DNA of 64,000 nt from Escherichia coli (GTDB lineage: Bacteria > Pseudomonadota > Gammaproteobacteria > Enterobacterales > Enterobacteriaceae). The position numbers and the translations under genes are program-made. Below are positions 1 to 58,341 of the stretch, in pieces. The stretch lies in the NCBI RefSeq assembly GCF_022846255.1, contig NZ_AP025682.1. One strand, 5' to 3'. Under the pieces are notes generated by a model. That model saw only the letters and a list, made by a program, of their open reading frames with translations. It searched no databases and was not told where the DNA came from. Numbering within the stretch: the first letter of the stretch is position 1; each line of letters starts with the position of its first letter.

Positions 1-12
1 AGGTGGGATTAA

Positions 13-222
13 TTACCAGCGGTAATCATGGCGTTTTTCCCAACTATCAACCTCTTTTTCTGCCTGATCTTTCTGATAACCGTAGCGTTCCTGGATTTTA
101 CCCACTAACTGATCACGTTTTCCTTCAATGATCGTCATATCATCATCGGTCAGTTTGCCCCATTGCTCTTTCACTTTACCTTTAAACTGTTTCCAGTTAC
201 CGCCGGCTTCATCTTTATTCAT
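13..222 (-). CDS. yjbJ: Stress-induced protein YjbJ (CsbD/UPF0337 family), about 69 aa
   Basis: ORF track 13..228; translation MNKDEAGGNWKQFKGKVKEQWGKLTDDDMTIIEGKRDQLVGKIQERYGY matches remembered YjbJ; start set at second Met. Confidence 0.85.
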   Translation of the reverse strand: MNKDEAGGNWKQFKGKVKEQWGKLTDDDMTIIEGKRDQLVGKIQERYGYQKDQAEKEVDSWEKRHDYRW

Positions 223-337
223 AATCAAGACCTCATCGTTAGGTTGTGAATGAGAGTACGTTCACTTTTCTTCTGAACGTGAGATTAAGTGTAGTCAGCA
301 ATTTGGCTTAGGATTATTTATTCAGAATTTTTAACCG

Positions 338-1663
338 TCACGTTGCGACAAACCAGGTATCGTTACGCCAGTGACGCCGCCAGATAGCCGCCAGAGAAAG
401 CCCGCGTAACGCCAGAAAGACGGTTAACGCCAGCCACAAACCATGATTCCCCAGCCACGGCAGCGTAAGGAGCGTCAGCGCAAAACCTGCGGCGGCCACC
501 GCCATACTGTTACGCATTTCGGCGGCACGCGTTGCGCCTATAAACATGCCGTCCAGCAGATAACACCAGACGCCGACCAACGGCAAAATCACCTGCCAGA
601 TAAGATAGCGGTCAGCCAGCTGCTGAATCTGGGTTAACGACGTCAGCAACGCAATGATGTGTTCCCCTGCCAGCAAATAAACCACCGAAAACAGTAACGC
701 TACGATCCCCGACTGGCGGCACGCTGCCCGCCAGACATCCAGCAATTGACTACCGTCGCGCGCACCGTATGCCTGACCGGAATGTGCTTCAACCGCGTAG
801 GCAAAACCATCCAGCGCATAGGCGGTAAAGGTGAGTAGCGTCATCAGAACCGCGTTAACAGCGATAATGTCACTCCCCAGTCGCGCGCCAAGTACGGTGA
901 TCGCGCCGAAACAGAGTTGCAACAACAGCGAGCGCAGCATGATATCGCGGTTAAGCGCCAGCAAGCGACGGAAATTTCCTCGCCAGGCAGTTTTCAGCAT
1001 TTCGCCGGAGATTCCGCGTAGTTTGAGGATTTTACGCACCATTAGCAGACCAATCAGCAATGTTGCATATTCCGCAATAACCGTCGCCAGCGCCGCGCCC
1101 TGCACGTTCATATGCAGCCCCATCACCAGCCAGACATCCAGCACAATGTTGAGGATATTGCCGACCACTAACAAAATTACTGGCGCACGGGCATATTGCA
1201 CGCCGAGTAACCAACCAAGTAATACCAGATTCGCCAGCGACGCCGGTGCGCTTAACCAGCGGATTTCAAGAAAGCGCCGCGCCTGTTCTAGCACCGCTTC
1301 GCTGCCGCCAACAATATGCAGCGCCAGATCGATAATCGGCGTACGCAGCAGCGCAATTAACGCCCCAGCCCCCAACGCCAACAGCAACGGTTGCACCAGC
1401 GCACGGGCTAGTGCCTGAGGATTTTTGGCACCATAAGCCTGCGCAGTCAGCCCGGTGGTGCTCATGCGTAAAAACAGCAACAACATAAAGAGAAAGCTGG
1501 TCGCCGTTGCACCAACCGCCACGCCGCCCAAATAAACCGGACTATCAAGATGACCAATTACCGCCGTATCGACCAGTCCCAGCAACGGAACGGTGATATT
1601 GGAGAAAATCATGGGTAAGGCGAGATGCCAGAGTGCTTTATCAGATGAAGTGAGGAATGCCAT
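338..1663 (-). CDS. dinF: MATE-family efflux protein DinF (SOS-inducible); start codon uncertain
   Basis: ORF track 338..1816; 12-TM MATE-like translation immediately downstream of lexA as in the lexA-dinF operon; start placed at Met of MAFLTSSDKALW, the upstream 51 codons overlap lexA and are probably not coding. Confidence 0.85.
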   Translation of the reverse strand: MAFLTSSDKALWHLALPMIFSNITVPLLGLVDTAVIGHLDSPVYLGGVAVGATATSFLFMLLLFLRMSTTGLTAQAYGAKNPQALARALVQPLLLALGAGALIALLRTPIIDLALHIVGGSEAVLEQARRFLEIRWLSAPASLANLVLLGWLLGVQYARAPVILLVVGNILNIVLDVWLVMGLHMNVQGAALATVIAEYATLLIGLLMVRKILKLRGISGEMLKTAWRGNFRRLLALNRDIMLRSLLLQLCFGAITVLGARLGSDIIAVNAVLMTLLTFTAYALDGFAYAVEAHSGQAYGARDGSQLLDVWRAACRQSGIVALLFSVVYLLAGEHIIALLTSLTQIQQLADRYLIWQVILPLVGVWCYLLDGMFIGATRAAEMRNSMAVAAAGFALTLLTLPWLGNHGLWLALTVFLALRGLSLAAIWRRHWRNDTWFVAT

Positions 1664-52990: not shown

Positions 52991-54280
52991 ATGAAAGTAT
53001 TAGTGATTGGTAACGGCGGGCGCGAGCACGCGCTGGCCTGGAAAGCGGCACAGTCGCCGCTGGTTGAGACTGTTTTTGTTGCTCCGGGTAACGCAGGCAC
53101 TGCGCTGGAGCCTGCACTGCAAAACGTCGCTATCGGCGTAACCGATATCCCGGCGCTGCTGGATTTCGCACAAAACGAAAAGATCGATCTAACCATCGTC
53201 GGCCCGGAAGCGCCGCTGGTGAAAGGCGTGGTCGATACCTTCCGCGCCGCCGGGCTAAAAATCTTCGGCCCAACCGCAGGCGCCGCGCAACTGGAAGGCT
53301 CGAAAGCGTTTACCAAGGATTTCCTGGCCCGCCATAAGATCCCTACGGCGGAATACCAGAACTTCACCGAGGTCGAACCTGCGCTGGCGTATCTGCGTGA
53401 AAAAGGCGCGCCAATCGTCATTAAAGCGGACGGTCTGGCTGCTGGGAAAGGCGTGATCGTGGCGATGACGCTCGCAGAAGCCGAAGCCGCCGTTCACGAC
53501 ATGCTGGCGGGCAATGCGTTTGGCGATGCGGGCCATCGCATCGTCATCGAAGAATTCCTCGACGGCGAAGAAGCCAGTTTCATCGTGATGGTGGACGGCG
53601 AGCATGTGCTGCCGATGGCCACCAGCCAGGATCACAAACGCGTAGGCGATAAAGATACCGGACCAAACACGGGCGGGATGGGCGCTTACTCCCCTGCGCC
53701 AGTAGTGACCGATGAGGTTCATCAGCGCACGATGGAGCGTATCATCTGGCCAACCGTGAAAGGCATGGCGGCGGAAGGCAACACCTACACTGGTTTTCTC
53801 TACGCGGGCCTGATGATCGACAAACAGGGCAATCCGAAGGTTATTGAATTTAACTGCCGCTTTGGCGATCCGGAAACCCAGCCGATTATGCTGCGCATGA
53901 AGTCCGATCTGGTTGAGCTCTGCCTGGCGGCCTGTGAAGGCAAGCTGGACGAGAAAACGTCCGAGTGGGATGAACGCGCTTCTCTCGGCGTGGTGATGGC
54001 TGCGGGTGGATATCCGGGCGATTACCGCACCGGCGATGTGATCCACGGCCTGCCGCTGGAAGAAGTGGCAGACGGCAAAGTGTTCCACGCGGGCACGAAA
54101 CTAGCGGATGACGAGCAGGTAGTGACCAGCGGCGGGCGCGTACTGTGCGTTACCGCGCTGGGTCATACCGTGGCAGAAGCGCAGAAACGCGCTTATGCCT
54201 TAATGACCGATATCCATTGGGACGACTGCTTCTGCCGGAAAGATATCGGCTGGCGCGCTATCGAACGCGAGCAGAACTAA
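52991..54280 (+). CDS. purD: Phosphoribosylamine-glycine ligase PurD, 429 aa
   Basis: ORF track 52979..54280; start at MKVLVIGNGGREHALAWKAAQSPLVETVFVAPGNAGTA; ATP-grasp fold. Confidence 0.95.
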   Translation: MKVLVIGNGGREHALAWKAAQSPLVETVFVAPGNAGTALEPALQNVAIGVTDIPALLDFAQNEKIDLTIVGPEAPLVKGVVDTFRAAGLKIFGPTAGAAQLEGSKAFTKDFLARHKIPTAEYQNFTEVEPALAYLREKGAPIVIKADGLAAGKGVIVAMTLAEAEAAVHDMLAGNAFGDAGHRIVIEEFLDGEEASFIVMVDGEHVLPMATSQDHKRVGDKDTGPNTGGMGAYSPAPVVTDEVHQRTMERIIWPTVKGMAAEGNTYTGFLYAGLMIDKQGNPKVIEFNCRFGDPETQPIMLRMKSDLVELCLAACEGKLDEKTSEWDERASLGVVMAAGGYPGDYRTGDVIHGLPLEEVADGKVFHAGTKLADDEQVVTSGGRVLCVTALGHTVAEAQKRAYALMTDIHWDDCFCRKDIGWRAIEREQN

Positions 54281-55602
54281 CGCGACAGTTTTGCCAATAG
54301 CGTTTTGCGCGTGATCCCTAACTGGCGGGCGGCTTCGGTTTTGTTGCCGCCCGTTTTCTCCAGCGCCGCCAGAATCACCTCTTTTTCGACTTCCACCAGC
54401 GGCTGAATATCCTGACTTTGTACCAGCGGGATCGGCGTACTGGCAATCGCCAGCGGCAGCTCGCGTTCGGAAATATATTCCCCGGTCAGCAGCACCACCG
54501 CCCGTTCCACCGCGTTTTCCAGTTCACGAATATTTCCCGGCCAGTCGTAATGAATCAGCAGATCCATCGCCTGGGGCGTAAAGCCTTTTACCGCCTTGCG
54601 ATTACGTTCGGCAAAGCGCTGAAGAAAATGGCCAGCCAGCAGAGGAATATCTTCCCGCCGTTGCCGCAGCGATGGTACTTCAATCGCCACCACGTTCAGC
54701 CGATAGTAGAGATCCTGGCGAAAACGCCCGGCATTCACCTCTGCGGCAAGATCGCGATGGGTTGCCGCAATCAGCCGGACATCAACCGAAATAGTCTGGT
54801 TGCTACCGACACGCTGAACTTCGCGCTCCTGAATCGCACGTAGCAGACGCACCTGCATCATCGGCGAGATATCGCCAATTTCATCGAGAAACAACGTGCC
54901 GCCGTCCGCCTCAACAAAGCGCCCTTCCCGGCGTTTGTCGGCCCCGGTAAACGCCCCTTTTTCGTGACCGAACAATTCAGACTCCAGCAAGGATTCGTTG
55001 AGCGCCGCGCAGTTGAGCGTTACCAGCGGTTTTTCGCTACGTGCGCTACTGGCGTGAATCGCCCTGGCGACCAGCTCTTTACCGGTGCCGGAATCGCCGT
55101 GGATCAGCACCGTGGCTTCCGATGGCGCGACGAGGGCGATTTCACTGAGCAGGTGTTGCATCGCCGGGCTTTTACCGACCATACCGAACTGGCTGGCAGA
55201 CACCGCAGGCGTTTCAGCGTCAACACTGTGTGTATGCGCGAGCGCCTTTTCCAGCGTCGCCTGTAGGTTATCGAAATCCAGCGGCTTGATGAGATAATCC
55301 AGCGCCCCGGTTTTCAACGCCTCTACCGCCGTCTCGACGCTGGAGTACGCGGTCATAATCAGCACCGGAATCGCGGGGTTTAATGTTTTGATCTCTTTTA
55401 GCGTGGCGATGCCGTCCATCTCTGCCATTCGCACATCGCAAAGCACAAGATCAAAAACCTGTTCCCGCACCTGCTCCAGCGCCTGTCGCCCGCTGTTCGC
55501 CAGCGCGACGTTATAGCCCCAGCCGCGCAGCAAAGCCTGCAAAATAGTGCAGTGGCTAATGTCATCATCCACCACCAGAATATCGATATTATCGTGCGTC
55601 AT
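54277..55602 (-). CDS. zraR: Sigma-54-dependent response regulator ZraR (HydG), 441 aa
   Basis: Receiver domain (DILVVDDD...D54-like), AAA+ sigma54-activation domain with GAFTGA motif (EKGAFTGA) and C-terminal HTH; overlaps zraS stop by 4 nt. Confidence 0.93.
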
Positions 55603-56975
55603 CCTTGTGGGTCCTTACGCGTAATAGTGACCGGAAGCCAGAGGGTGAACGTTGCGCCTTTTCCCTCCTGGCTTGCGACCTGAATTGTACCACCGTGTTG
55701 TTCAACAATATTATGCACGACCGCCAGCCCCAGTCCGGTGCCTTCGGCTTTGGTGGTGAAGTACGGAGTGAAGATGGCTTCAAGCTGATCTGCCGCAATT
55801 CCCTTACCGCTGTCGGTAACGCTGATTTTCACACCCGTGCCGCTTTCGCTGGCCGTCACGCTAATCACGCCATGCTGACCAATCGCCTGAATAGCATTGA
55901 GATAGAGATTCAACAGGACCTGAGTCAGCCTGTCCGGATCGGCCTGAATTTCCGGTAATGTGTCGTTGGCGGTAAAGCGTAACTGGATCTCCCGGCTGTT
56001 TGCATCCTGGCTTACCAGCTGTAATGAGTGGTTAATCAGCGTGTTGAGATCCACCGCCTGCAAAGCCAGATGCGTTGGCTTAACCAGTTCCAGCAACTCG
56101 CTTACCACGCGGTTTAAACGGTCGGCTTCTTTCGCCATCACCTGCGCCAGTTGATGCGCTTCTCCCCCTGCTGGCGCGCGTTCGGCAAAGTATTTCGCCA
56201 GCCCTTTAATCGAGGAAAGTGGGTTACGGATTTCGTGGGCAACACCTGCCGCAAGATGCCCCAGCGCCACCAGCTTCTCTTTGCGCTTCATTTCATCTTG
56301 CAACAACTGGCGCGAGCGCAGATAGCGACGATACCAGAAGAATGACAACACGCTTGCCAGCAAGACCGTCGCCAGGGCGAAGAGGATAATCAGGGTGTTT
56401 CTCTGCTCACGATCTTCGGCACTCACAATATTACTGGCGTCGAAAGCGATGAAAATTGCTTGTGGTGTCGCGGCATACTGCTGCATATGGCGCATCCGGT
56501 GCATTCCAGCAGCAAACATCGGTTGAAACTGGCGATAAATTTCCAGAACAGGCTCACCGTCTGCGCTATCGATCCGCCGCCACCCTTCTTCATCTCCCGG
56601 ATGTAACTGCTGCATTTCCTGCGGGGAATAAAGCTGTTTTCCCACCATGCCGGAGTTGCTATGCATCACGATTGTTCCTTGTTCATCCGTGACCGCAAAC
56701 CAACGTACTCCAGGCTGCCCGGCCATTTCTTCCAGTAATGCCTGCTGCTGCGCATGATGCATGCGCATCCCCATGCCGACGCGCGAGCCGGATTCGAGAG
56801 CACGGATAAGTACACTGCCTTTTTCCAGCAGCGTTTGTCTGGCGGCTGCAGTCTCGCGCCCGTAATCGCGAATCACTGTCACCGCAAACAGCCCCACCAG
56901 CCCAACAATGACCACGGGGAGGATCGCGCTTAACCATTTAGCTAAAGAGTCTTTAGAACGTTGCATAAAACGCAT
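55599..56975 (-). CDS. zraS: Sensor histidine kinase ZraS (HydH), 458 aa
   Basis: Two TM segments flanking a periplasmic domain, H-box (AAGVAHEIRNPLSSIKG) and HATPase_c G-boxes (DSGKGI, GTGLGLAVV). Confidence 0.9.
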   Translation of the reverse strand: MRFMQRSKDSLAKWLSAILPVVIVGLVGLFAVTVIRDYGRETAAARQTLLEKGSVLIRALESGSRVGMGMRMHHAQQQALLEEMAGQPGVRWFAVTDEQGTIVMHSNSGMVGKQLYSPQEMQQLHPGDEEGWRRIDSADGEPVLEIYRQFQPMFAAGMHRMRHMQQYAATPQAIFIAFDASNIVSAEDREQRNTLIILFALATVLLASVLSFFWYRRYLRSRQLLQDEMKRKEKLVALGHLAAGVAHEIRNPLSSIKGLAKYFAERAPAGGEAHQLAQVMAKEADRLNRVVSELLELVKPTHLALQAVDLNTLINHSLQLVSQDANSREIQLRFTANDTLPEIQADPDRLTQVLLNLYLNAIQAIGQHGVISVTASESGTGVKISVTDSGKGIAADQLEAIFTPYFTTKAEGTGLGLAVVHNIVEQHGGTIQVASQEGKGATFTLWLPVTITRKDPQG

Positions 56976-57006
56976 CTTCTTCTTTGCCTGCTCATCCCTT
57001 TCTGAC

Positions 57007-57022
57007 AGCAGAAATCATGCCA
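57007..57022 (-). promoter_or_regulatory. Candidate sigma-54 (-24/-12) promoter for zraSR
   Basis: Minus strand reads TGGCATgatttcTGCT (GG and GC spaced 12 nt), about 30 nt upstream of zraS start. Confidence 0.55.
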
Positions 57023-57073
57023 TCTTTTATCAGCGCTTACCCTGCGCTGTAACACAAAGGCTTAAGTTTCAAT

Positions 57074-57119
57074 GAGTAAAAATGACTCGCTACCCGCAGC
57101 AGGCGAGTCATTTTTACTC
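57074..57119. promoter_or_regulatory. Perfect 17-bp inverted repeat pair (gagtaaaaatgactcgc N12 gcgagtcatttttactc), candidate ZraR enhancer/UAS between divergent zraP and zraSR
   Basis: Arms at 57074..57090 and 57103..57119 are exact reverse complements; located between the two sigma-54 promoter candidates. Confidence 0.65.
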
Positions 57120-57161
57120 GTTTATCATGCCAGATTACCCGTCATATCAGCGTTTCATCGT

Positions 57162-57177
57162 TGGCACGGAAGATGCA
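57162..57177 (+). promoter_or_regulatory. Sigma-54 (-24/-12) promoter for zraP
   Basis: TGGCACggaagaTGCA (GG-N10-GC) about 35 nt upstream of zraP ATG. Confidence 0.7.
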
Positions 57178-57212
57178 ATATCCGAAGTAAGACAACCACT
57201 GGAGGATTAACC

Positions 57213-57638
57213 ATGAAACGGAACACGAAAATTGCCCTGGTAATGATGGCGCTTTCAGCAATGGCGATGGGATCGACATCTGCATTTGCTCACGGCGGAC
57301 ATGGTATGTGGCAGCAAAATACCGCGCCTTTGACCAGCGAACAACAGACAGCGTGGCAGAAAATCCATAATGACTTTTACGCTCAAAGCAGCGCACTGCA
57401 ACAGCAACTGGTGACGAAGCGTTATGAATACAATGCCCTGTTAGCCGCGAACCCACCGGATAGCAGCAAAATTAACGCGGTCGCCAAAGAGATGGAGAAT
57501 TTGCGTCAGTCGTTAGATGAGTTACGGGTGAAACGGGATATTGCGATGGCTGAAGCGGGTATTCCGCGCGGAGCCGGAATGGGCATGGGCTACGGCGGCT
57601 GCGGTGGTGGCGGTCATATGGGTATGGGCCACTGGTAA
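57213..57638 (+). CDS. zraP: Zinc-resistance-associated periplasmic protein ZraP, 141 aa
   Basis: ORF track 57072..57638; start at ATG 57213 after ggagg SD: MKRNTKIALVMMALSAMAMGSTSAFAHGGHGMWQQ...; Gly/His/Met-rich C-terminus GMGMGYGGCGGGGHMGMGHW. Confidence 0.92.
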   Translation: MKRNTKIALVMMALSAMAMGSTSAFAHGGHGMWQQNTAPLTSEQQTAWQKIHNDFYAQSSALQQQLVTKRYEYNALLAANPPDSSKINAVAKEMENLRQSLDELRVKRDIAMAEAGIPRGAGMGMGYGGCGGGGHMGMGHW

Positions 57639-57639
57639 A

Positions 57640-58341
57640 TCAGAACGTTTTCTCGTTGGGTTGCCAGCGACAGAAATCAGAGTTTGCCACCAACAGTAAT
57701 TGCGAACCTTCGGGCGCTTCCAGCCATGCCACGCTGACATCAACAGAAGAGCGGCTCTGGCGGCGCTCGATATGCGCTATCGCCTGCGAATCTAAATCAG
57801 GTTTAATGGTTTGCCCTTCGCAGGTGGTCACGGTCTGTTCCATCGCATGCCAGCGCCCCTGGCGCAGCACGACTCTCCCCTGACGTAAGGCATCGCTAAT
57901 CTGGCGGATCTGATCAGCACGATAACGGTATAAATCGATTTGGTCGTTAGAAAGCTGCTGCTTTTCCCCATCGGATTCACGTTGCATAAAGCTCAGATCA
58001 CCGCGATCGTCAAAACGCGCGCGAATGTTCACCGGCGGTTTGCTGTAAACATTGATATTGATGAGCGTGAGGTTATCGCCCTGCCAGCGATACTCTCGCG
58101 TTGTGGTATCGCCACTGCGCCACGGGCTAAACACGGCAAGCAGATGCACATTATCGCCGCTGTCTTTTCGCCAGATGCGTACCGCGCCCTGGTCTTCAGC
58201 AAATCCACTGGCGGTAAAGGGAGGAAGTGAAGAGTTGTGACTACAGGCAGTAAGAAACAGAGCGCCCGCCAGCATCAATGATCGACGCCAGAAAGACAAA
58301 AGGGGTGAAACCACCCCTTCGTTAAAACTGTTCACTGCCAC
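57640..58341 (-). CDS. yjaH: YjaH, DUF1481-family predicted lipoprotein; start approximate
   Basis: ORF track 233 aa; N-terminus ...RRSLMLAGALFLTACSHN contains lipobox LTAC; conserved position next to hupA. Confidence 0.8.
   Translation of the reverse strand: MAVNSFNEGVVSPLLSFWRRSLMLAGALFLTACSHNSSLPPFTASGFAEDQGAVRIWRKDSGDNVHLLAVFSPWRSGDTTTREYRWQGDNLTLININVYSKPPVNIRARFDDRGDLSFMQRESDGEKQQLSNDQIDLYRYRADQIRQISDALRQGRVVLRQGRWHAMEQTVTTCEGQTIKPDLDSQAIAHIERRQSRSSVDVSVAWLEAPEGSQLLLVANSDFCRWQPNEKTF

What the first reader, a model, noticed from the sequence alone, without database searches (positions are those of the whole stretch)
57000..57212. zraP / zraSR divergent sigma-54 control region with a perfect 17-bp inverted-repeat enhancer
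Two -24/-12 elements face outward (TGGCACggaagaTGCA toward zraP; TGGCATgatttcTGCT toward zraS). Between them lie two exact reverse-complement 17-mers separated by 12 bp, consistent with the known ZraR-dependent, zinc-responsive architecture. The ORF-track zraP ORF is extended 47 codons upstream through this regulatory DNA and should be trimmed.
Basis: partly seen in the sequence, partly recalled or inferred. Interest (0 to 1): 0.3.

Follow-up and report, generated by a model that had tools for sequence, protein, structure and literature searches.

The report
Known zraP–zraSR zinc-response control region
This is the well-studied DNA switch between the E. coli genes zraP and zraSR, where two outward-facing sigma-54 promoters share one central binding platform for the zinc-activated regulator ZraR; it is real and intact but ordinary and already known.

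Summary
All sequence claims check out. TGGCACGGAAGATGCA lies at 57162-57177 (+) and faces zraP. TGGCATGATTTCTGCT lies at 57022-57007 (-) and faces zraS. Exact reverse-complement 17-mers lie at 57074-57090 and 57103-57119, 12 nt apart. The listed zraP ORF (57072-57638, 188 aa) runs 47 codons beyond the real start at 57213.

The 237-bp spacer differs from E. coli K-12 MG1655 at one base (57181). The two promoter motifs are the published sigma-54 ChIP-seq motifs for zraP and zraS. ZraR binds this spacer in published gSELEX and ChIP-exo work.

A footprint over 16 genomes from five genera adds detail:
- Only four islands are conserved: the two promoters and the two ZraR sites.
- Each site is itself a dyad, consensus RYGRGT-AAAAATG-ACYCRC.
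- The site centres are always 31 bp apart, about three helical turns.
- The exact 17-bp inverted repeat occurs in only 5 of 16 genomes.
- Escherichia lacks about one helical turn (11 bp in 11 of 12 cross-genus comparisons) on the zraP side.

Verdict: observation confirmed, interpretation supported, already known, low interest. Side notes: ZraS has two sensor-domain alleles in E. coli, and some public records annotate spurious ORFs over this enhancer.

The parts
57007..57022 (-). zraSR sigma-54 promoter, -24/-12 element TGGCATGATTTCTGCT; predicted transcription start about 56996
   Evidence: Pattern match. Identical to the sigma-54 ChIP-seq motif OS39, whose predicted start lies 21 bp before the gene. 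14 of 16 columns are invariant across the 11-sequence, five-genus alignment.
57073..57089 (.). Left ZraR site (enhancer half), TGAGT-AAAAATG-ACTCG, centre 57081
   Evidence: Arm of the inverted repeat. 12 of 17 columns are invariant across genera. The core GTAAAAATGAC is present in 15 of 16 genomes, with one base changed in E. albertii.
57090..57103 (.). 14-bp spacer between the two dyad sites; its length is fixed but its sequence is free
   Evidence: Column identity is only 0.58, yet the core-to-core distance is 31 bp in 16 of 16 genomes. E. coli polymorphisms in the enhancer stretch cluster here.
57104..57120 (.). Right ZraR site, CGAGT-CATTTTT-ACTCG (perfect 5-bp dyad arms), centre 57112
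   Evidence: Inverted-repeat arm. 15 of 17 columns are invariant across genera.
57162..57177 (+). zraP sigma-54 promoter, -24/-12 element TGGCACGGAAGATGCA; predicted transcription start about 57188
   Evidence: Pattern match. Identical to ChIP-seq motif OS38, whose predicted start lies 25 bp before the gene. 12 of 16 columns are invariant. The Salmonella orthologue was bound in ChIP-chip and its gene induced 16-fold by a constitutive activator.
57201..57205 (+). zraP ribosome-binding site GGAGG, 7 nt before ATG 57213
   Evidence: Read directly from the sequence. The core GAG is invariant across the 11 aligned sequences; the flanking positions vary.
57213..57638 (+). zraP coding sequence, 141 aa (true start)
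   Evidence: NCBIfam ZraP equivalog scores 274 bits against a cutoff of 200 and covers residues 1-141. It is 99% identical to K-12 NP_418430.2.
57072..57212 (+). Spurious 47-codon upstream extension of the zraP ORF; it runs through the enhancer and the promoter
   Evidence: ORF list. In-frame stops lie 0-6 codons upstream in E. albertii, Citrobacter and Salmonella. The predicted transcription start, 57188, lies downstream of the ATG at 57072.
55599..56975 (-). zraS sensor histidine kinase gene
   Evidence: NCBIfam ZraS equivalog scores 886 bits against a cutoff of 479. It is 85% identical to K-12 ZraS, with the differences concentrated in the periplasmic domain.
54277..55602 (-). zraR, the sigma-54-dependent response regulator (the enhancer-binding protein)
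   Evidence: NCBIfam ZraR equivalog scores 995 bits against a cutoff of 760. It is 99% identical to K-12 ZraR.

Best explanation
This is the native zraP/zraSR divergent control region of an E. coli-type chromosome. Sigma-54 RNA polymerase sits in closed complexes on two outward-facing -24/-12 promoters. ZraS phosphorylates ZraR in response to periplasmic zinc or lead, or to envelope stress. Phosphorylated ZraR binds as dimers to two dyad sites (consensus RYGRGT-AAAAATG-ACYCRC) whose centres are 31 bp apart, about three helical turns, so both dimers lie on the same face of the DNA. The dimers assemble into an AAA+ ring there. DNA looping brings the ring to either promoter, about 92 bp away on the zraP side and about 100 bp away on the zraS side. 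ATP hydrolysis then opens the promoter. The outputs are the periplasmic protein ZraP and more ZraS and ZraR (autoregulation).

Shown here: the sequence elements, their near-identity to K-12, and their conservation and fixed geometry across genera.

Shown by others: sigma-54 occupancy, ZraR binding to this spacer, and dependence on zinc and ZraR.

Inferred from the NtrC-family paradigm: one dimer per site, ring assembly and looping.
For: - **Gene identities.** All three flanking genes match their equivalog models.
- **Identity to K-12.** The spacer differs from K-12 at one base, 57181.
- **Promoters.** Both motifs equal the sigma-54 ChIP-seq motifs OS38 and OS39 and give the same predicted starts. 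Zhao 2010 also lists them. RpoN holoenzyme gSELEX gives a peak in this spacer.
- **ZraR binding.** The only strong ZraR gSELEX peak is this spacer, with 81 of 86 clones. ChIP-exo gives peaks upstream of zraP and zraSR, and zraS expression falls in a zraR knockout grown with zinc.
- **Salmonella.** The orthologous motifs were bound in ChIP-chip and their genes induced. They are identical to those in locus L013.
- **Footprint.** Column identity is 0.92-0.99 on the two promoters and two sites, against 0.40-0.63 across the unassigned intergenic stretches and the inter-site spacer.
- **Geometry.** Site spacing is 31 bp in 16 of 16 genomes. The enhancer centre lies 99.5-100.5 bp from the zraS start everywhere. 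It lies 102.5-103.5 bp from the zraP start outside Escherichia and 90.5-91.5 bp within it, a difference of about one helical turn.
- **Population.** The 71-bp enhancer stretch is 100% identical in 4353 of 5419 E. coli genomes. The variants examined fall mostly in the inter-site spacer and flanks; one touches position 16 of the left 17-mer, and none touch the core.
- **No alternative signals.** No sigma-70-like promoter or terminator-like site was found in 56850-57750.
Against: I found nothing substantive against this reading. Four caveats apply.
- The base-resolution ZraR footprint (Leonhartsberger et al. 2001, PMID 11243806) is not in the held library. Assigning ZraR to these exact 17-19 bp sites therefore rests on conservation, on my recollection of that abstract (two inverted repeats separated by 14 bp), and on lower-resolution binding data.
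- Bonocora et al. mark both promoters as 'P', meaning predicted in EcoCyc, so the transcription starts quoted here are predictions.
- One review lists the ZraR enhancer consensus as not known.
- Nothing here tests zinc response in this particular strain, whose ZraS sensor domain differs from that of K-12.
Confidence: 0.95

Rival explanations
1. The inverted repeat acts as a nucleic-acid structure (an RNA or DNA hairpin, a bidirectional terminator or a cruciform) rather than as a pair of protein-binding sites.
For: As a single strand it folds into a 21-bp stem at -18.8 kcal/mol, z-score -8.6 against shuffled sequences.
Against: - It lies upstream of both predicted transcription starts, between divergent genes, so neither sigma-54 promoter transcribes it.
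- No T-run follows it and the terminator scan found nothing.
- Across genera the stem positions are conserved as sequence, not as pairs. The two 17-mers differ at 1-4 positions in 11 of 16 genomes with no compensating changes.
- The asymmetric centre AAAAATG is invariant in 31 of 32 sites.
- The 'loop' keeps a fixed length with free sequence. This fits two phased protein sites better than a hairpin.
Confidence: 0.02
2. The 188-aa ORF from ATG 57072 is the real zraP product, so the 'regulatory' DNA is coding.
For: The frame is open for 49 codons upstream in the E. coli-type sequences. Public databases hold ZraP entries of 174-186 aa.
Against: - RefSeq K-12 ZraP is 141 aa.
- The equivalog model ends at residue 1 of the short form.
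- The short form begins with a typical signal peptide and is preceded by GGAGG.
- In-frame stops lie 0-6 codons upstream in E. albertii, Citrobacter and Salmonella.
- An 11-bp indel, which is not a multiple of three, falls inside the supposed extension.
- The sigma-54 transcription start lies downstream of ATG 57072.
Confidence: 0.01
3. The two conserved dyads bind a regulator other than ZraR, or one in addition to it, and ZraR binds elsewhere in the spacer.
For: The binding data I could read (gSELEX, ChIP-exo) place ZraR in the spacer but not on specific bases. A second semi-conserved block exists at 57036-57058.
Against: - The dyads are the only strongly conserved non-promoter elements.
- They have the GT-N7-AC type dyad seen for the related activator NorR.
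- They sit about 90-100 bp from both promoters, the usual place for an enhancer.
- They match my recollection of the published footprint, two inverted repeats 14 bp apart.
Confidence: 0.03

Closest known systems
E. coli K-12 zraP-zraSR (formerly yjaI-hydHG) intergenic region, ZraR/sigma-54 dependent (Leonhartsberger et al. 2001; Bonocora et al. 2015)
   Same: The 237-bp spacer is the same length and the same sequence at all but one base. The gene order is the same. Both sigma-54 motifs and both dyad sites are identical.
   Different: There is one substitution at 57181 (T here, C in K-12), 7 nt before the predicted zraP start. The adjoining ZraS periplasmic domain is the other, commoner E. coli allele.
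NtrC enhancer at glnAp2 (two strong dimer sites about three helical turns apart, upstream of a sigma-54 promoter)
   Same: Two dyad sites lie on the same face of the helix, about 100 bp upstream of a -24/-12 promoter. The activator is a response regulator of the NtrC family. This comparison rests on established knowledge, and ZraR also matches the NtrC model strongly.
   Different: The site sequence is different. Here one enhancer lies symmetrically between two divergent sigma-54 promoters and serves both.
NorR enhancer sites at norVW (GT-N7-AC dyads)
   Same: The dyad core has the same form, GT-N7-AC (PMC2831303). The ZraR sites read G-R-G-T-N7-A-C-Y-C.
   Different: NorR needs three sites and IHF. 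Here there are two sites, the central 7 bp is a conserved asymmetric AAAAATG, and no IHF consensus was seen.

Membership tests
zraP/zraSR ZraR-dependent divergent sigma-54 control region | Lies between divergently oriented zraP and zraSR orthologues | tested here: met
   The NCBIfam equivalogs for ZraP, ZraS and ZraR all score above cutoff. Gene order matches K-12.
zraP/zraSR ZraR-dependent divergent sigma-54 control region | Two outward-facing -24/-12 (GG...GC) sigma-54 promoter elements at the right distance from the genes | tested here: met
   Pattern matches. Both are identical to the motifs under the published sigma-54 ChIP-seq peaks.
zraP/zraSR ZraR-dependent divergent sigma-54 control region | ZraR-binding enhancer between the promoters | tested here: inconclusive
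   The sequence is identical to the K-12 spacer that binds ZraR in gSELEX and ChIP-exo, and the dyads are conserved at fixed spacing.
zraP/zraSR ZraR-dependent divergent sigma-54 control region | Induction by zinc or lead through ZraS and ZraR | not testable with these tools
   This needs a promoter fusion or RNA measurement in this strain. Published data exist for K-12.
Bacterial enhancer-binding-protein (NtrC-type) upstream activating sequence | Two or more dyad-symmetric sites, helically phased, about 80-150 bp upstream of a sigma-54 promoter | tested here: met
   In the window the 6-bp dyad arms match at 4 of 6 positions (left site) and 5 of 6 (right site); across the 16 genomes the range is 3-6 of 6. 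The centres are 31 bp apart in 16 of 16 genomes, and the enhancer centre lies 91.5 and 100.5 bp from the predicted starts.
Intrinsic terminator or structural hairpin | G+C-rich stem followed by a T-run, positioned at the end of a transcript | tested here: not met
   The scan found no terminator-like site. The element lies upstream of both genes, and arm complementarity is not maintained across genera.

The most novel reading that the evidence does not exclude
The cross-genus footprint may show more than the literature I could read records. First, the shared enhancer appears to be under strict geometric constraint: 31-bp site spacing, near-equal distances of about 100 bp to both promoters, and a deletion of about one helical turn on the zraP side in Escherichia. 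Second, a semi-conserved block, TAACCCTG-N7/8-ACACAAA at 57036-57058, lies upstream of the zraS promoter only. It could be a site for an unrecognised extra factor that sets the balance between the two promoters.
Probability: 0.15. Interest if true: 0.3.

Novelty: already known. Interest (0 to 1): 0.1.

Why it matters
It matters little beyond correct annotation. The region is a characterised regulatory switch, and zinc and lead biosensors are built on its zraP promoter (PMC5391612). The practical value is twofold. The zraP ORF should start at 57213, and the small ORFs lying over the enhancer should not be called as genes. The cross-genus comparison also gives a clean consensus for the ZraR site and shows that its geometry, not the perfect 17-bp repeat, is what is conserved.

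Tried and rejected
- **Original footprint paper.** PMID 11243806 is not held. A full-text search for the site sequence found no paper. The footprint is therefore cited from memory only.
- **IHF site.** I inspected both flanks by eye against WATCAANNNNTTR and found no match that is conserved across genera. A literature search for zraP plus IHF gave nothing relevant.
- **Compensatory changes within a site.** GAGT..ACTC versus GGGT..ACCC looked like covariation at first. All four combinations occur, so these positions are simply R and Y.
- **Hairpin or terminator reading.** Rejected.
- **Genome-collection scan.** The scan with the single ZraP protein returned only 10 loci, from Escherichia and Citrobacter. 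I added Salmonella, two further Citrobacter species, Kosakonia and Pluralibacter through protein search and contig look-ups. Klebsiella and Enterobacter were not sampled.
- **Extra TGGCAT hexamer.** The one at 57132-57127 (-) has no -12 partner and is confined to Escherichia, so I do not count it as a third promoter.

Full report
**Observation**

I read 56400-57700 and listed the ORFs.
- zraR lies at 54277-55602 (-), zraS at 55599-56975 (-) and zraP at 57213-57638 (+). The spacer is 56976-57212, 237 bp.
- The pattern TGGCAY-N6-TGCW matches only twice in the whole 64-kb window. Both matches lie in this spacer and both face outward: 57162-57177 (+) toward zraP and 57022-57007 (-) toward zraS.
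- The 17-mer GAGTAAAAATGACTCGC occurs at 57074-57090 (+) and, as an exact reverse complement, at 57103-57119. The arms are 12 nt apart.
- The mechanical ORF 57072-57638 is 188 aa, 47 codons longer than the 141-aa ZraP.

**Identity of the locus**

- The three proteins match the NCBIfam equivalog models for ZraP, ZraS and ZraR, all well above cutoff.
- ZraP and ZraR are 99% identical to the K-12 proteins.
- The spacer aligns to K-12 MG1655 without gaps and with one substitution, at 57181.
- The locus is present in 5420 of 5426 complete E. coli genomes.
- The 71 bp around the enhancer are 100% identical in 4353 of 5419 genomes.

**What is already known about this DNA**

- Bonocora et al. 2015 list sigma-54 ChIP-seq peaks OS38 and OS39 with the motifs TTGGCACGGAAGATGCA (zraP) and ATGGCATGATTTCTGCT (zraS). 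Their predicted starts lie 25 and 21 bp before the genes. In the window these correspond to 57188 and 56996.
- Zhao et al. 2010 list the same two promoters.
- RpoN holoenzyme gSELEX also gives a peak in this spacer.
- Shimada et al. 2021 found the zraP/zraSR spacer to be the single high-affinity gSELEX target of ZraR, with 81 of 86 clones.
- Choudhary et al. 2020 found ZraR ChIP-exo peaks upstream of zraP and zraSR, and zraR-dependent expression with zinc.
- In Salmonella the orthologous motifs were bound by sigma-54 holoenzyme, and the genes were induced by a constitutive activator.
- The original footprint paper, Leonhartsberger et al. 2001, is not in the held library. From memory, its abstract describes HydG binding to 'two inverted repeats separated by a 14 bp spacer'.

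**Anatomy**

That remembered description fits the sequence once each arm is read as a dyad in its own right.
- The left site is TGAGT-AAAAATG-ACTCG at 57073-57089.
- The right site is CGAGT-CATTTTT-ACTCG at 57104-57120.
- They are 14 bp apart, and their centres are 31 bp apart.

**Phylogenetic footprint**

I collected the orthologous spacer from 15 further genomes:
- three additional Escherichia species, an unnamed Escherichia isolate and two divergent E. coli;
- the Citrobacter amalonaticus group, C. freundii and C. rodentium;
- Salmonella enterica;
- Kosakonia arachidis;
- Pluralibacter lignolyticus.

All 16 genomes carry both sigma-54 motifs, and all 16 carry the two cores 31 bp apart; the core is exactly GTAAAAATGAC in 31 of the 32 sites, and the left site of E. 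albertii has one change. In an 11-sequence alignment column identity splits sharply.

| Element | Column identity |
|---|---|
| zraS promoter | 0.99 |
| zraP promoter | 0.97 |
| Left ZraR site | 0.92 |
| Right ZraR site | 0.96 |
| Inter-site spacer | 0.58 |
| Other unassigned intergenic stretches | 0.40-0.63 |
| zraP leader | 0.76 |

- Over 32 sites the consensus is RYGRGTAAAAATGACYCRC. G3, G5, T6, A7-A11, G13, A14, C15 and C17 are invariant.
- The exact 17-bp complementarity between the arms holds in only 5 of 16 genomes. What is selected is two copies of a protein site in mirrored orientation at fixed spacing, not a hairpin.
- The enhancer centre lies 99.5-100.5 bp from the predicted zraS start in every genome.
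- It lies 102.5-103.5 bp from the predicted zraP start outside Escherichia and 90.5-91.5 bp within it. The difference of about one helical turn keeps the helical phase.

**Mechanism**

The best-supported reading is the standard mechanism for a bacterial enhancer-binding protein. ZraS phosphorylates ZraR. ZraR dimers occupy the two phased dyads and assemble into an ATPase ring. DNA looping delivers the ring to sigma-54 polymerase waiting at either promoter. The result is zraP expression and zraSR autoregulation.

The sequence elements and their conservation are shown here. Sigma-54 and ZraR occupancy and the dependence on zinc and ZraR are shown by the cited papers. Dimer-per-site binding, ring assembly and looping are inferred from the NtrC family.

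**Rivals**

- *Structural hairpin or terminator.* The repeat would fold well as a single strand. However, it lies upstream of both starts, has no T-run, is not picked up by the terminator scan, and shows no compensatory changes across genera.
- *The long ORF is real.* The RefSeq start, the extent of the equivalog model, the ribosome-binding site and signal peptide, in-frame stops in other genera, an 11-bp indel inside the supposed extension, and the position of the transcription start all argue against it.

**Verdict**

The feature is already known and interest is low. The most that could be new is the geometric detail and a semi-conserved block at 57036-57058 on the zraS side, which I could not assign to any factor.

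Noticed in passing
window 56390-56860 (zraS codons ~40-195, periplasmic sensor domain): ZraS is mosaic relative to K-12. The N-terminal ~40 residues and the transmembrane and cytoplasmic parts are about 99% identical, but the periplasmic domain is much more divergent and 7 aa shorter. E. coli genomes fall into two classes: 4183 carry the window's allele at 95% nucleotide identity or more, and 1236, including K-12, match at only 60-80%. K-12 therefore carries the minority sensor allele.
   Followed up: partly
window 57082-57210 (+), 42-aa ORF; also 57072-57212: RefSeq for E. coli O157:H7 PV15-279 annotates this 42-aa ORF as 'hypothetical protein' WP_001297563.1. It lies directly on the enhancer and the zraP promoter. 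Public ZraP entries of 174-186 aa also exist. Both look like annotation artefacts.
   Followed up: partly
window 57036-57058: A semi-conserved block, TAACCCTG-N7/8-ACACAAA, has column identity 0.82. It lies about 41-63 bp upstream of the predicted zraS start and has no counterpart on the zraP side. It does not match the IHF consensus, and its function is unexplained.
   Followed up: partly
window 57121-57161 compared with loci L008-L017: Escherichia lacks about one helical turn (11 bp in most comparisons) between the right ZraR site and the zraP promoter, relative to Citrobacter, Salmonella, Kosakonia and Pluralibacter. Helical phase is kept although the sequence in this stretch is not conserved.
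   Followed up: yes
window 57127-57132 (-): A third TGGCAT hexamer (part of a 9-bp direct repeat, ATCATGCCA, shared with the zraS promoter) abuts the right ZraR site. It has no -12 partner and is not conserved outside Escherichia.
   Followed up: partly
L013 (Salmonella) 1-1313 (-): The automatic gene call for Salmonella zraS (487 aa) starts upstream of its own sigma-54 promoter motif. This is the same kind of over-extension as the zraP ORF, on the other side of the spacer.
   Followed up: no
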